This document shows positions 760 to 3,786 of a stretch of 12,956 bases of DNA, piece by piece. The stretch is from positions 1 to 12,956 of IMG/VR virus record IMGVR_UViG_2778261122_000005. The stretch is one strand, 5' to 3'. Position numbers and translations under genes: made by a program. The notes beneath the pieces were generated by a model. The model was given only the letters and a program-made list of their open reading frames with translations, was not told where the DNA came from and did not search any database. The stretch's first letter is position 1; every line of letters starts with the position of its first letter. Origin of the DNA: a virus (taxonomy: Duplodnaviria > Heunggongvirae > Uroviricota > Caudoviricetes).

Positions 760-2421
760 TTACACACCATCAAACGCCGCAAGCCGCTCTTTGTGGCTGT
801 CGCTCATATCGAATGCAAATTCCTCATGCTCTGCCTGGAATGTGCCAAACGCCATCAGCGCCGCAACGCTCGGGTCTATCTTGTTGGATGATTTTTTCTT
901 GTTCGGCTTGATATTGGCGTTAGCGTCACTCTGCATCACAACATTACTCATTGACCAGGCCAGCACCGGATCACCACGATGCACAATCACCTTCCGGTTA
1001 ACAAAAACTTCGAACGATTTCGCCGCCGGACTGAAACGAAGGTATGTTTGCGGGAACGGCTCCACCTCAAATCCTGCCCCCTGTAGCTGCGTCCTCAGGT
1101 GCGTGGCGTTCCATGTATCGAAGCCCACCAGCCTGATATTGAAATTCTCTGCATCCGCCATGATGTCATCACGGATACGGTCATAATCAATGCAGTCACC
1201 CGGTGTTGTGCGTATCCAGCCCGCCTTTACCCACTGGCGATAGATGGCGCGGTTTTTATTGGCGGGGTTCTGTAGCTGAAATTCCGGCAGATAGTGACGG
1301 GAAACCAGCATAATCTTTTTACCGACCGGAAAGGCATAGCACACGCTGGAAATATCGCTGGTTGATGATAAGTCCAGCCCCGCGTAGCACTCCTGCCCGT
1401 ATAAATCCGCCTCCGCGAACGTTCCGGCGCACTCCGCCCATGCACCGTTACCCATCCACGGCGTAGCCCCCTGACACCAGATATTGAATCGCTTGGTGAG
1501 CATTTCCACCCACTGCGACGGAATACCCCGCGCTTTCTGGATGGTTGAGGCCAGTTTTTCACGATCGACGGAAACATCGATATTTGGATTCGCCTTTATC
1601 CACATCGCCGGATCGTCAACCTCGCTTTCATCATCCAGCTCGTAAATCAGAACGAACATGGATTCGTTCATCTCTTCACCATCCAGTATCTGACAGCAAT
1701 AGTCATAGTGTTGTTTACAGGCTGAAACAACGTTGCTCCCCGATGTGGTAATGGCAAATAACAGCCCTTCGGGACGTGCGCCCATCCCCATATCAAGTGC
1801 GGAATAAACCCCGTTGTCTGGGTGCAGGTGATATTCATCCACAATGGCAAGACTCGGGTTTGTCCCCTCAATGGTTGCCGCTTTTGCTGCCAGTGGCTTT
1901 AACAGGCTGTTGGTTTTCGGGTGTATCACCTTATGCGCCTGAATATTCACCCGCCTGCGTAACGGTCGGGATAAAAGGCACATCTGACGCGCATCATCAA
2001 AGACGATCCGCGCCTGGTCACGGCTCACCGCTGCGGTGTAGATATCCTGCTGACCGTTCTCCATAATCAGAAACCAGTTAGCCAGAATCGCGGCGGTCGT
2101 GGATTTCGCATTTTTGCGCGGCACTTCGATAAAGGCGCTCGTGTATTTGCGCCGTCCGGTGGCCTTAACCTTAAAGCCGAGGATGCACGCAAAGGCGAAC
2201 TGCTGCCACGGCTCCAGCTCAATGGGTCTGCCACGCATCGGTCCTTTTACGTGCGGACACACCCTGGAAAAGGCAATAAACCGCTCCACGACCTCCGGAT
2301 CGAACGTGTAAAGGGGGTTTTCAAGGTCAGAAAAATACCGTTTAACGGCCTGTTTCAGTCGTTTACAGGCCGTAATTTTGCCGTTTTTTACGCCTTCTGC
2401 GTACTCATGCCAGGTGGTCAA
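760..2421 (-). CDS. terL: Terminase large subunit
   Basis: 553-aa ORF whose sequence reads as a phage large terminase (ATPase plus nuclease). It lies immediately downstream of and overlapping the small terminase. Apparent TTG start at 2421, preceded by a GAGGAAGAGGA Shine-Dalgarno-like stretch inside the terS 3' end. Confidence 0.88.
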   Translation of the reverse strand: MTTWHEYAEGVKNGKITACKRLKQAVKRYFSDLENPLYTFDPEVVERFIAFSRVCPHVKGPMRGRPIELEPWQQFAFACILGFKVKATGRRKYTSAFIEVPRKNAKSTTAAILANWFLIMENGQQDIYTAAVSRDQARIVFDDARQMCLLSRPLRRRVNIQAHKVIHPKTNSLLKPLAAKAATIEGTNPSLAIVDEYHLHPDNGVYSALDMGMGARPEGLLFAITTSGSNVVSACKQHYDYCCQILDGEEMNESMFVLIYELDDESEVDDPAMWIKANPNIDVSVDREKLASTIQKARGIPSQWVEMLTKRFNIWCQGATPWMGNGAWAECAGTFAEADLYGQECYAGLDLSSTSDISSVCYAFPVGKKIMLVSRHYLPEFQLQNPANKNRAIYRQWVKAGWIRTTPGDCIDYDRIRDDIMADAENFNIRLVGFDTWNATHLRTQLQGAGFEVEPFPQTYLRFSPAAKSFEVFVNRKVIVHRGDPVLAWSMSNVVMQSDANANIKPNKKKSSNKIDPSVAALMAFGTFQAEHEEFAFDMSDSHKERLAAFDGV

Positions 2422-2761
2422 GCTCGTCCTCTTCCTCTGTTTCCGGTGGATTTCTGCGGCGGCTTACCGGGTCAAAACCCAGCAAAGAAGCCATTTTGAT
2501 CATTATTCTTTCTGCGTCAGCCTTTGCGCTCAGGGCGGGGTTTCTGCTCTCGCTGCCCTGACTGTTAACAATGCTGAAGCCGCGTGTCGCAAGGTCTTCG
2601 ACGGCTTTGCGGTATAGGGAGTAGTTAACGCAATACAGTTCCAGATTGCTCCAGTCGGCGGGGGTAAGGTCTTCCCGCCCGGAAAGCTGGCGCGATTTTT
2701 CCTTCCACTGCCTGACCGCGATTTCATCCAGGTAAGCGGGGGCTTTTGGTGGTCTTGCCAT
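2405..2761 (-). CDS. terS: Terminase small subunit (P27-type)
   Basis: Start set at the internal ATG (2761) giving MARPPKAPAYLDE..., the characteristic N-terminus of P27-family small terminases. The longer track ORF (to 2902) has an implausible N-terminal extension. Acidic C-terminal tail, stop overlapping terL start. Confidence 0.75.
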   Translation of the reverse strand: MARPPKAPAYLDEIAVRQWKEKSRQLSGREDLTPADWSNLELYCVNYSLYRKAVEDLATRGFSIVNSQGSESRNPALSAKADAERIMIKMASLLGFDPVSRRRNPPETEEEDELDHLA

Positions 2762-3049
2762 GTTCTTTTTTCGCCCAATTATTTTCAAAAAAATTCCCGT
2801 GCACAAAAATTTGAGGAGGCGGTCGGTGTCCGGCATGGACGGTTTCGTCCTGAAAACCTCCCCCACCCCCTCTGACGGCCTCACCAGCGATTGCGAAAAC
2901 ATTCCATGACCTCGCGGTCACGGTCGGTTAATCGCTTCGCTGTGGTGCGTTCTGTGCGCCCTGTCCTGTTGGCTTTGTGCTCTGTCTCCTGTGTCTTCCA
3001 TGTGTCACGCTGCCTTATCAGTCCACGTATCAGCCTGTTTTGCTCCTGT
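2762..3049. other. Putative cos (cohesive end) packaging site region
   Basis: A 288-bp non-coding gap sits exactly between the HNH endonuclease and terS, where HNH-associated cos phages place cos (established knowledge). It contains GACCTCGCGG (~2908..2917), identical to a 10-mer in lambda cosN as I recall it, plus GC-rich tracts (CCCCCACCCCC ~2858..2870). Confidence 0.4.
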
Positions 3050-3490
3050 TCAGTCATCATCGCCATACATCCAGTCGTTACGGTGTGCTGCCCGTTCTTC
3101 CTGATCGCGATACATGCCCGCCTTACGGTTCGCTTTCGTGGCTGGATCTTCCCGTGTCGTCTTACGGTTGTGGCACGTCTGACACAATGCCTGGTGATTC
3201 CACTCAGGCCAGAAGAGAACATCACCGCCGCCATTGATGGGGATAATGTGATCCACCACAAAGGCTGGCGTATAAATACCCTCAGCCAGACAACGCACAC
3301 ATAACGGATTTTTTTTCAGGTACATGGCGCGGTATTTGTCCCACTGTCGGGAATACCCGCGCGCGCGGCGGTGTCCCCGTCTGGCATCCTCTGCACGCCA
3401 TGCAGCCCGCCTGTGCTCTTCACACTTGCCGGACTTCACGCGCTTATTACAGCCCGGCTCAGTGCATCGCCTTAATGGTTGCCATGGCAT
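3050..3490 (-). CDS. HNH endonuclease (terminase-associated)
   Basis: 146-aa protein with Cys pairs and HNH signature (..VVDHIIPINGGG..NHQALCQTCHNRKT). Start overlaps the stop of the upstream connector gene. Typical position upstream of cos/terS. Confidence 0.85.
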   Translation of the reverse strand: MPWQPLRRCTEPGCNKRVKSGKCEEHRRAAWRAEDARRGHRRARGYSRQWDKYRAMYLKKNPLCVRCLAEGIYTPAFVVDHIIPINGGGDVLFWPEWNHQALCQTCHNRKTTREDPATKANRKAGMYRDQEERAAHRNDWMYGDDD

Positions 3491-3786
3491 CAGTACACCC
3501 CCACATCACGATAAACCGACCAGAGCGCGGAAATCGTCAGGGGAATTTCTTTTGTATCGGTATCGCCAAGCGTTGTCCGGTACTCGTACAGTTGCGAGAT
3601 GTACATCAGGCAACCAATTTTTATTGCAGGGGTAAATTCCAGGCCGTCATCAAAACGCCTGCCAATATGCTTCTGGCATACCTCCAGCGCCGCACTTATG
3701 TATGCCTGAATCAGTGTGTCTTCTGTGTTACCATCTATGCGGCAGTGAAGTTTGGCCTCTTCCAGGGTTATTTTTTCTGCTGTCAT
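3490..3786 (-). CDS. Head-tail connector protein (gp6-like, DNA-packaging family)
   Basis: 98-aa protein; N-terminus MTAEKITLEEAKLHCRIDGNTEDTLIQAYISAA matches the conserved pattern of gp6-like connector proteins. ATGA overlap with the upstream gene. Confidence 0.7.
   Translation of the reverse strand: MTAEKITLEEAKLHCRIDGNTEDTLIQAYISAALEVCQKHIGRRFDDGLEFTPAIKIGCLMYISQLYEYRTTLGDTDTKEIPLTISALWSVYRDVGVY

What the first reader, a model, noticed from the sequence alone, without database searches (positions are those of the whole stretch)
2762..3049. Putative cos site between HNH and terS carrying a lambda-like GACCTCGCGG motif
The 288-bp gap between the HNH endonuclease and terS is where HNH-dependent cos phages place their cohesive-end site. 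It contains a 10-mer, GACCTCGCGG (~2908..2917), that matches part of lambda cosN as I recall it, with partial dyad symmetry around it (GACC...GGTC). If this is the cos site, the identity of the helper phage, or a capacity to hijack lambda-like terminases, could be read from it.
Basis: partly seen in the sequence, partly recalled or inferred. Interest (0 to 1): 0.5.

Follow-up and report, generated by a model that had tools for sequence, protein, structure and literature searches.

The report
HK97-type cos site, not lambda-like
The lambda-like 10-mer is a coincidence inside a small conserved gene; the likely DNA-packaging (cos) site of this capsid-forming phage satellite lies about 90 bases away, just upstream of terS, and is built like the cos site of phage HK97.

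Summary
GACCTCGCGG is at 2908-2917 (+) and does equal lambda nt 8-17. But it is not in a gap. It forms codons D-R-E-V of a conserved 61-codon gene (2881-3066, minus strand, phrog_3173). It is antisense to the packaging operon and absent from 179 of 202 related loci. Nothing else around it resembles lambda cos.

The window is a capsid-forming PICI (cf-PICI) with an HK97-type packaging module (HNH, P27-family TerS, HK97-class TerL). The true intergenic spacer is 119 bp (2762-2880). It holds two noncoding boxes as conserved as terS codon positions 1 and 2: a G-run (2860-2870) and box B (2779-2828).

Two linear assemblies of relatives end here. A 15.5-kb metagenome contig covers a whole cf-PICI except 10 nt, which map to window 2816-2825. 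The particle-derived vB_KppS-Ant record lacks 69 bp spanning the same spot.

Anchored at that cut, the layout matches HK97 and the known helper HK106: G-run near -50, 10-nt GC-rich end, T7 tract at +23 to +29, terS ATG at +55.

The parts
2908..2917 (+). The reported 10-mer GACCTCGCGG. On the minus strand it is CCGCGAGGTC, within codons GAC-CGC-GAG-GTC (D-R-E-V) of the small ORF. It is a coincidental match to lambda nt 8-17, not a cos element.
2881..3066 (-). Conserved small gene (61 aa, MAMMTEQEQ...RDREVMECFRNRW) between HNH and terS; function unknown.
   Evidence: RefSeq CDS WP_073999567.1. phrog_3173 E=3e-28 over the full profile. Intact in 113 loci across genera; indels in multiples of 3; third-position entropy highest (1.02 vs 0.70 and 0.60); dN/dS mostly 0.2-0.7.
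3050..3490 (-). HNH endonuclease of the packaging module
   Evidence: PF01844 E=1.9e-9; phrog_144
2405..2761 (-). Small terminase, P27 family
   Evidence: PF05119 E=3e-23; RefSeq annotation
760..2421 (-). Large terminase, HK97 class (ATPase plus nuclease domains)
   Evidence: PF03354 and PF20441
2779..2870 (-). Inferred cos region: box A, variable spacer, cohesive-end segment and box B
   Evidence: Conservation profile; termini of linear assemblies of relatives; HK97-like geometry
2860..2870 (-). Box A: G-run GGGGGTGGGGG at -55 to -45 from the inferred cut. HK97 has a G9 run at -51 to -43.
   Evidence: Mean pairwise identity 0.84 across species, against 0.52 at terS third positions; positions
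2816..2825 (-). Inferred 10-nt cohesive-end segment (CGACCGCCTC on the gene-sense strand). Predicted nicks lie between 2816/2815 on the sense strand and between 2826/2825 on the other strand; probably a 3' overhang.
   Evidence: Contig IMGVR_UViG_3300022664_000095 starts at the base homologous to 2815 and ends at the base homologous to 2826. 225 of 228 relatives have exactly 31 nt between GAC and CTCAAA, so 10 nt are missing.
2779..2828 (-). Box B: CACCGACCGCCTCCTCAAATTTTTGTGCACGGGAATTTTTTTGAAAATAA, a conserved noncoding block that spans the cut
   Evidence: Mean pairwise identity 0.82 across 69 distinct upstream sequences from different species. Also present in Pasteurella and Xenorhabdus copies that lack the small ORF.
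2787..2801 (-). Predicted TerS recognition segment at +15 to +29 (CACGGGAATTTTTTT), including the T7 tract at 2787-2793. This is by analogy with the HK97 TerS minimal site at +15 to +29 (CTAACCCGATTTTTT).
   Evidence: HK97 site from PMC11331095; positions. Inference only; binding was not tested.

Best explanation
The window is a capsid-forming PICI, a satellite that makes its own capsids and packages its own DNA with an HK97-type machine (HNH, P27-family TerS, HK97-class TerL, portal).

Its cos site is the conserved noncoding block at 2779-2870, directly upstream of terS.

Inferred mechanism, by analogy with HK97:
- TerS binds the A/T-tract segment about +15 to +29 downstream of the cut (2787-2801).
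- TerL with HNH makes staggered nicks on either side of the 10-nt GC-rich segment at 2816-2825, leaving 10-nt, probably 3', cohesive ends.
- The G-run about 50 nt upstream (2860-2870) is a further conserved subsite of unknown role.

The lambda-like 10-mer at 2908-2917 plays no part. It is four codons of a conserved small gene and matches lambda by chance.

Shown: the gene identities, the coding status of the small ORF, the noncoding conservation, the contig termini in relatives, and the HK97-like geometry.
Inferred: that this particular element is cut at the homologous bases, the overhang polarity, and which protein binds which box.
For: (1) Packaging genes are HK97/P27-type, and the island has cf-PICI gene content with no tail genes.

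(2) A close relative, KpCIDSM30104, was shown experimentally to have cohesive ends (bioRxiv 10.1101/2025.02.11.637232).

(3) In loci found by TerS homology, one genome per species, 71 of 82 carry both boxes. Mean pairwise identity is 0.84 for box A and 0.82 for box B. The spacer is 0.55, and terS codon positions 1, 2 and 3 are 0.84, 0.89 and 0.52.

(4) The boxes persist in Pasteurella and Xenorhabdus copies that lack the small ORF.

(5) vB_KppS-Ant is KpCIDSM30104 sequenced from particles with Nextera XT and SPAdes (PMC8006926). It is 100% identical to the K. pneumoniae ATCC 13883 chromosome on both arms but lacks exactly 69 bp covering box B.

(6) The 15,518-bp contig IMGVR_UViG_3300022664_000095 is a complete, circularly permuted cf-PICI. 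Its true start is CTCAAATTTTTACGC... and its true end is ...GCAAGGCAC. Relatives have exactly 10 nt between these points. Contig base 1 aligns to window 2815.

(7) Anchored at that cut, the G-run is at -55 to -45 (HK97 -51 to -43), the T7 tract at +23 to +29 (HK97 +24 to +30) and the terS ATG at +55 (HK97 +50). Gapless identity to HK97 over -60 to +35 is 39/95. The null is 23.7 +/- 4.3, and 0.055% of other offsets reach that value. A relative scores 48/95. Colinear alignment scores 56 against 37 +/- 6, with 7 of 1000 shuffles as high.

(8) HK97 has a 10-nt 3' overhang and a TerS site at +15 to +29 containing the A-tract (PMC11331095).
Against: - No particle DNA from this exact element was examined. 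The cut is transferred by homology from relatives about 75-80% identical in this region.
- Only one contig gives base-level ends, and its library type is unknown.
- Scans for more such ends found none: 0 of 61 metagenome contigs, and no further example among 98 IMG/VR hits.
- The Ant gap only brackets the site to 69 bp.
- HK97 TerS shows no detectable sequence similarity to this TerS, so the TerS-site analogy rests on DNA geometry only.
- Unanchored local alignment to HK97 cos is not significant (179 of 1000 shuffles score as high).
- The 3' polarity is inferred from the absence of the 10 nt and from family precedent.
Confidence: 0.85

Rival explanations
1. One reading: the 10-mer with its dyad at 2904-2923 is a lambda-like cosN, and the element can be cut or packaged by a lambda-type terminase.
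For: Exact 10-nt identity to lambda nt 8-17, which spans a cosN nick. Only 1.4% of shuffles match the 42-bp cosN core this well.
Against: The 10-mer lies in a conserved coding gene and is absent from 179 of 202 related loci. There is no flanking similarity to lambda cosN or cosB in either orientation. It is inverted relative to terS. The terminase is not of the Nu1/gpA type. Both linear assemblies of relatives read straight through the homologous position. Pasteurella relatives have no such region at all.
Confidence: 0.02
2. Boxes A and B are transcription or translation control sites for terS-terL, such as an activator or antiterminator site or a promoter, rather than cos. The assembly breaks there would be coincidental.
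For: The boxes sit immediately upstream of terS. A/T tracts are common in regulatory DNA. A dual role cannot be excluded.
Against: There is no sigma-70-like promoter on the gene strand and no Rfam hit. Folding is not unusual (z = -1.2). Two independent linear assemblies end in this block, one leaving exactly a 10-nt gap. The geometry matches HK97 cos. terS lies inside a contiguous operon.
Confidence: 0.07
3. The element uses headful (pac) packaging, with no fixed ends.
For: None specific. It is a generic alternative for any terminase.
Against: A terminase-associated HNH with an HK97-class TerL is the hallmark of cos packaging. Cohesive-end concatemers were observed for KpCIDSM30104. A full-length contig with both ends 10 nt apart does not fit permuted ends.
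Confidence: 0.02

Closest known systems
cos site of phage HK97, identical in HK106, an experimentally shown helper of the cf-PICI EcCIEDL933
   Same: It lies between the HNH gene and terS. It has a G-run about 50 nt upstream of the cut, a 10-nt GC-rich cohesive segment preceded by AC, a T7 tract at +23/+24 to +29/+30, and the terS ATG at +50/+55. Anchored gapless identity is 41-50% over 95 nt. The machine is the same kind: HNH plus HK97-class TerL.
   Different: The recognition bases differ: +15 to +29 is CACGGGAATTTTTTT here and CTAACCCGATTTTTT in HK97; the overhang is CGACCGCCTC here and CGCCGCCAAA in HK97. TerS is P27-family (PF05119) with no detectable similarity to HK97 gp1. A 61-aa gene sits between HNH and cos here. 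These differences fit the reported mutually exclusive packaging of satellite and helper.
Lambda cos (cosQ-cosN-cosB, 12-nt 5' overhang)
   Same: One exact 10-mer (lambda nt 8-17), and the general idea of a cos site upstream of the small terminase gene.
   Different: There is no further similarity. The 10-mer is coding, inverted and not conserved. The terminase family differs. The inferred overhang is 10 nt and probably 3', not 12 nt and 5'.
cf-PICIs EcCIEDL933 and KpCIDSM30104 (vB_KppS-Ant)
   Same: Same gene order: int, regulation, primase, capsid, protease, portal, connectors, HNH, terS, terL. No tail genes, about 15 kb. Boxes A and B are conserved. TerS is 83-84% identical.
   Different: A different lineage: about 68% DNA identity across the HNH-terS region. 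The small protein is 7 codons longer. The cohesive segment is CGACCGCCTC rather than CACCCGCCCC.
Satellites that carry their helper's cos (P4; cos-type SaPIs such as SaPIbov5)
   Same: A phage satellite with a cos site.
   Different: Those elements copy the helper's cos and use the helper's terminase. This element has its own terminase and a diverged cos.

Membership tests
HK97-type (HNH-dependent) cos site | Located between the HNH gene and terS, immediately upstream of terS | tested here: met
   The conserved block is at 2779-2870, HNH at 3050-3490 and terS at 2405-2761. HK97 has the same layout.
HK97-type (HNH-dependent) cos site | Encoded HNH endonuclease plus HK97-class TerL and portal | tested here: met
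   PF01844, PF03354 with PF20441, and PF04860
HK97-type (HNH-dependent) cos site | Packaged DNA has fixed ends at the site | tested here: inconclusive
   Met in relatives only. A full-length contig has ends 10 nt apart. The particle-derived Ant assembly lacks 69 bp here. Cohesive ends were shown for KpCIDSM30104. This element itself was not examined.
HK97-type (HNH-dependent) cos site | 10-nt 3'-protruding cohesive ends | tested here: inconclusive
   The 10-nt length is supported by the 10-nt gap. The 3' polarity is inferred from the absence, rather than duplication, of those bases and from HK97 precedent.
HK97-type (HNH-dependent) cos site | TerS-binding site with an A-tract at about +15 to +29 | not testable with these tools
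   The sequence geometry matches (T7 at +23 to +29), but binding needs EMSA or a structure. TerS is not sequence-related to HK97 gp1.
Lambda-type cos | cosN: quasi-symmetric nicking site giving the 12-nt 5' end GGGCGGCGACCT | tested here: not met
   Only 5 of the 12 overhang bases plus 5 flanking bases match, with no extension.
Lambda-type cos | cosB (R3-I1-R2-R1) between cosN and the small terminase gene | tested here: not met
   No alignment to lambda -75 to +120 scores above shuffle level in either orientation. The motif faces away from terS.
Lambda-type cos | Nu1/gpA-type terminase | tested here: not met
   TerS is PF05119 and TerL is PF03354/PF20441. That lambda's subunits belong to other families is from my own knowledge, not tested here.
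Capsid-forming PICI (cf-PICI) | [quoted passage not shown] | tested here: met
   RefSeq annotation of the identical E. coli SM107 locus; Pfam hits; criteria from bioRxiv 10.1101/2025.02.11.637232
Capsid-forming PICI (cf-PICI) | 10-18 kb, with no lysis genes and no tail module | tested here: met
   About 15 kb lie between thiM and the integrase, and no tail or lysis gene is annotated.
Capsid-forming PICI (cf-PICI) | Induced and given tails by a helper phage | not testable with these tools
   Needs induction and transfer experiments.

The most novel reading that the evidence does not exclude
The cf-PICI cos keeps the whole architecture of its HK97-type helper's cos: G-run at about -50, 10-nt 3' end, and A-tract at +23. 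It does so even though its TerS belongs to a family with no detectable sequence similarity to HK97 gp1. On this reading, the few diverged recognition bases are what make satellite and helper packaging mutually exclusive. The G-run (box A) would be a so far undescribed cos subsite, perhaps cosQ-like and perhaps bound by HNH or TerL, shared by HK97-like phages and cf-PICIs.
Probability: 0.35. Interest if true: 0.5.

Novelty: new member of a known kind. Interest (0 to 1): 0.3.

Why it matters
The finding as written, a lambda-like cos motif, is a coincidence and should be dropped.

What is really there is ordinary in kind: an HK97-type cos in a known satellite family. It is still useful. In the papers I could search, the cf-PICI cos had not been mapped. 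Public assemblies place it to the base in relatives.

A defined cos of about 90 bp, with its own terminase, is what one would need to engineer cf-PICI-based DNA delivery. It would also help explain why helper and satellite do not cross-package, and help recognise packaging-dead remnants such as the Shigella copy.

The case also shows that a short exact match to a famous site carries little weight unless its conservation has been checked.

Tried and rejected
- Lambda similarity beyond the 10-mer: local alignments in both orientations score at shuffle level.
- Dyad or terminator role for the 10-mer hairpin: not above chance and not conserved.
- RNA element: no Rfam hit at E<=1. Folding of the spacer is not unusual (z = -1.2).
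- Promoter upstream of terS: none on the gene strand.
- DNA similarity of the region to deposited phages: only three records, all cf-PICI-like.
- Phages with a related TerS and informative record ends: AbIPP1 and EPP-1 records start at or near terS by convention and say nothing about ends. The closest true-phage TerS is under 40% identical.
- More contigs ending at the cut: 0 of 61 metagenome contigs, and none beyond the single contig among 98 IMG/VR hits. Most are integrated copies, so this is uninformative rather than contrary.
- Several IMG/VR loci seemed to end near box A (L018, L077, L102). These turned out to be storage cuts, not contig ends, and were discarded.
- Unanchored local alignment to HK97 cos is not significant. 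Only the colinear alignment and the cut-anchored comparison are.
- I ran no further search on the 61-aa protein, because its coding status was already clear.

Full report
**What is in the sequence.** All genes in this part of the window are on the minus strand. In gene order they are:
- a head-tail connector (3490-3786);
- an HNH endonuclease (3050-3490, PF01844);
- a P27-family small terminase (2405-2761, PF05119);
- an HK97-class large terminase (760-2421, PF03354 and PF20441).

Portal, prohead protease, major capsid protein, SSB and a DUF927 primase lie further upstream in the operon. The window is 100% identical to a chromosomal island of E. coli SM107. That island is about 15 kb, is flanked by thiM and an integrase, and has no tail or lysis genes. 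This is the gene content and order that defines capsid-forming PICIs. These satellites build their own capsids, package their own DNA and take only tails from a helper (bioRxiv 10.1101/2022.09.08.507074 and 10.1101/2025.02.11.637232). The HNH-terS region is found in 491 of 5426 complete E. coli genomes.

**Checking the observation.** GACCTCGCGG is present once, at 2908-2917 on the + strand. Three things undercut it.

- The interval is not a 288-bp gap. RefSeq annotates a 61-aa protein at 2881-3066 on the minus strand, overlapping the HNH stop. The real spacer is 119 bp (2762-2880).
- The match is weak statistically. 34% of dinucleotide shuffles of the interval share 10 nt or more with a 603-bp lambda cos region. 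1.4% match the 42-bp cosN core, a target chosen after the fact. The match does not extend, and alignments to lambda cos score at shuffle level in both orientations.
- The 10-mer reads away from terS, and its short dyad is no more than chance gives.

**The 10-mer is coding sequence.** The 61-aa ORF matches phrog_3173 over the whole profile (E=3e-28). An intact homologue is present in 113 fetched loci, including Klebsiella, Serratia, Rosenbergiella, Winslowiella, Proteus and Photorhabdus. Length differences are multiples of three (21 nt and 3 nt). Third codon positions vary most (entropy 1.02 against 0.70 and 0.60). Pairwise dN/dS is mostly 0.2-0.7. The 10-mer is the antisense of codons GAC-CGC-GAG-GTC (D-R-E-V) in the conserved C-terminal motif RDRE(V/L)(M/R)ECFRNR. 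Relatives keep the peptide but not the DNA, reading GACCGGGAGCTT, GAGCGGGAGGTG and similar. The exact 10-mer occurs in only 23 of 202 loci, all from the window's own lineage. Pasteurella and most Xenorhabdus relatives lack the small gene altogether.

**Where the conserved noncoding signal is.** I collected relatives without reference to the DNA motif, by TerS homology in one genome per species. Of 82 upstream regions, 71 carry two boxes:
- box A, GGGGTGGGGG (window 2860-2870);
- box B, GGAACCGCCCCCCTCCTCAAATTTTTACGCACGGCAATTTTTTTGAAAATA (window 2779-2828).

Mean pairwise identity is 0.84 for box A and 0.82 for box B. That is the same as terS codon positions 1 and 2 (0.84 and 0.89). The spacer between the boxes (0.55) and the stretch just before the terS ATG (0.53) behave like third positions (0.52). 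The boxes are present whether or not the small gene is. No gene-strand promoter, Rfam family or unusual fold accounts for them.

**Physical ends in relatives.** Two independent linear assemblies break exactly here.

1. vB_KppS-Ant (LR881103.1) is a 16.5-kb record from particles released by K. pneumoniae DSM 30104. That makes it the cf-PICI KpCIDSM30104, for which cohesive-end concatemers were observed. It was sequenced with Nextera XT and assembled de novo with SPAdes (PMC8006926). Its two arms are 100% identical to the ATCC 13883 (the same strain as DSM 30104, from my own knowledge) chromosome, but 69 bp between ...TTTTCAGGAC and ACGAAAAGG... are missing. Loss of some tens of bases at each physical end is what tagmentation libraries usually produce (my own knowledge, not tested here).

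2. IMG/VR contig IMGVR_UViG_3300022664_000095 (15,518 bp) is a complete cf-PICI in the packaged permutation: terS and terL first, HNH and the small gene last. Its true first bases are CTCAAATTTTTACGCACGGTGATTTTTTT... Its true last bases are ...TTTTCAGGACAAAACCCAAGCCGCAAGGCAC. In 225 of 228 related sequences, exactly 31 nt separate GAC from CTCAAA. The contig has 21 of them, so exactly 10 nt are absent (consensus CACCCGCCCC; CGACCGCCTC in the window's lineage).

A circular or concatemeric template would normally give an overlap at the contig ends, not a gap. A 5' overhang would be filled in and so duplicated at both ends. A 10-nt gap is what trimming of 3' overhangs during end repair leaves behind. 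(These three expectations are general knowledge of library preparation, not tested here.) BLAST aligns contig base 1 to window 2815, and the contig end corresponds to 2826. The inferred cohesive segment is therefore 2816-2825.

**Comparison with HK97.** HK97 has a 10-nt 3' overhang. Its TerS binds +15 to +29 (CTAACCCGATTTTTT), recognising the A-tract by shape (PMC11331095). The cut used below as the anchor for this element came from contig ends, not from any alignment.

| Feature | HK97 | This window |
|---|---|---|
| G-run | -51 to -43 | -55 to -45 |
| T7 tract | +24 to +30 | +23 to +29 |
| terS ATG | +50 | +55 |

Gapless identity over -60 to +35 is 39/95 for the window and 48/95 for a relative. 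The null is 23.7 +/- 4.3, and 0.055% of other offsets reach the observed value. A colinear alignment scores 56 against 37 +/- 6. HK106, an experimentally shown helper of the prototype cf-PICI, has a cos region identical to HK97's.

The satellite's cos therefore has the helper's architecture, but with different bases in the overhang and in the presumed TerS site. That fits the reported independence and mutual exclusivity of phage and satellite packaging. One caveat: HK97 TerS has no detectable sequence similarity to this TerS, so assigning box B to TerS is an analogy.

**Mechanism and confidence.** I put 0.85 on the following:
- cos lies at 2779-2870;
- staggered nicks flank 2816-2825 and give 10-nt, probably 3', cohesive ends;
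- TerS recognises about 2787-2801;
- cleavage is by TerL with HNH;
- the G-run acts as an accessory subsite.

Shown here: the gene families, the coding status of the small ORF, the noncoding conservation, the assembly termini in relatives, and the geometric and sequence resemblance to HK97. Inferred: the cut in this exact element, the polarity, and the protein-site assignments.

Rivals:
- a purely regulatory role for the boxes (0.07);
- headful packaging (0.02).

**Novelty and score.** The family (cf-PICI) and the kind of site (HNH-dependent HK97-type cos) are known. The precise cos of these elements was not described in the texts I could search. That makes this a new member of a known kind, with a practical base-level prediction. 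The feature the finding highlighted is a coincidence. Interest is 0.3.

Noticed in passing
window 2881-3066 (minus strand): A conserved 61-aa protein (phrog_3173, function unknown) sits between HNH and cos, with an invariant C-terminal motif RDRE(V/L)(M/R)ECFRNR. It is present in many enterobacterial cf-PICIs but absent from Pasteurella copies and most Xenorhabdus copies. Acinetobacter phage AbIPP1 also has a small ORF in this position. It could be a packaging accessory.
   Followed up: partly
L181 (Shigella flexneri SFBU1023, CP182556.1), about 2981-3010 of the locus: This copy has a deletion running from just after ...TTTTCAGGACAAACC into terS codon ~7. It removes box B, the inferred cut site and the terS start, so it is probably a packaging-dead remnant.
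   Followed up: partly
L171 (Xenorhabdus hominickii), upstream of terS: Box A is expanded into a tandem array, GGGGTA repeated about five times.
   Followed up: no
L134-L204 (Xenorhabdus genomes): Single Xenorhabdus genomes carry many copies of this HNH-cos-terS module (X. innexi and X. kozodoii have five or more loci each). Many sit at contig breaks, which suggests multi-copy satellite families.
   Followed up: no
window 2816-2825 and homologous positions in L006-L391: The 10-nt cohesive segment differs between lineages: CACCCGCCCC, CGCCTGCCCC, CGACCGCCTC, CGAACGCCTC. The flanking CTCAAATTTTT is nearly invariant, and the 31-nt spacing from GAC is fixed in 225 of 228 copies.
   Followed up: partly
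L003 (LR881103.1, vB_KppS-Ant): The source paper describes this record as a filamentous ssDNA phage (PMC8006926). It is in fact the cf-PICI KpCIDSM30104, with capsid, portal and terminase genes. A 2298-nt ORF after terL is annotated as a tape measure protein.
   Followed up: no
window 2841-2858 (minus strand): There is a small dyad, GGTTT-TCAGGACG-AAACC, just downstream of box A. The GAC(A/G)AA core is moderately conserved across species. Its role is unknown.
   Followed up: no
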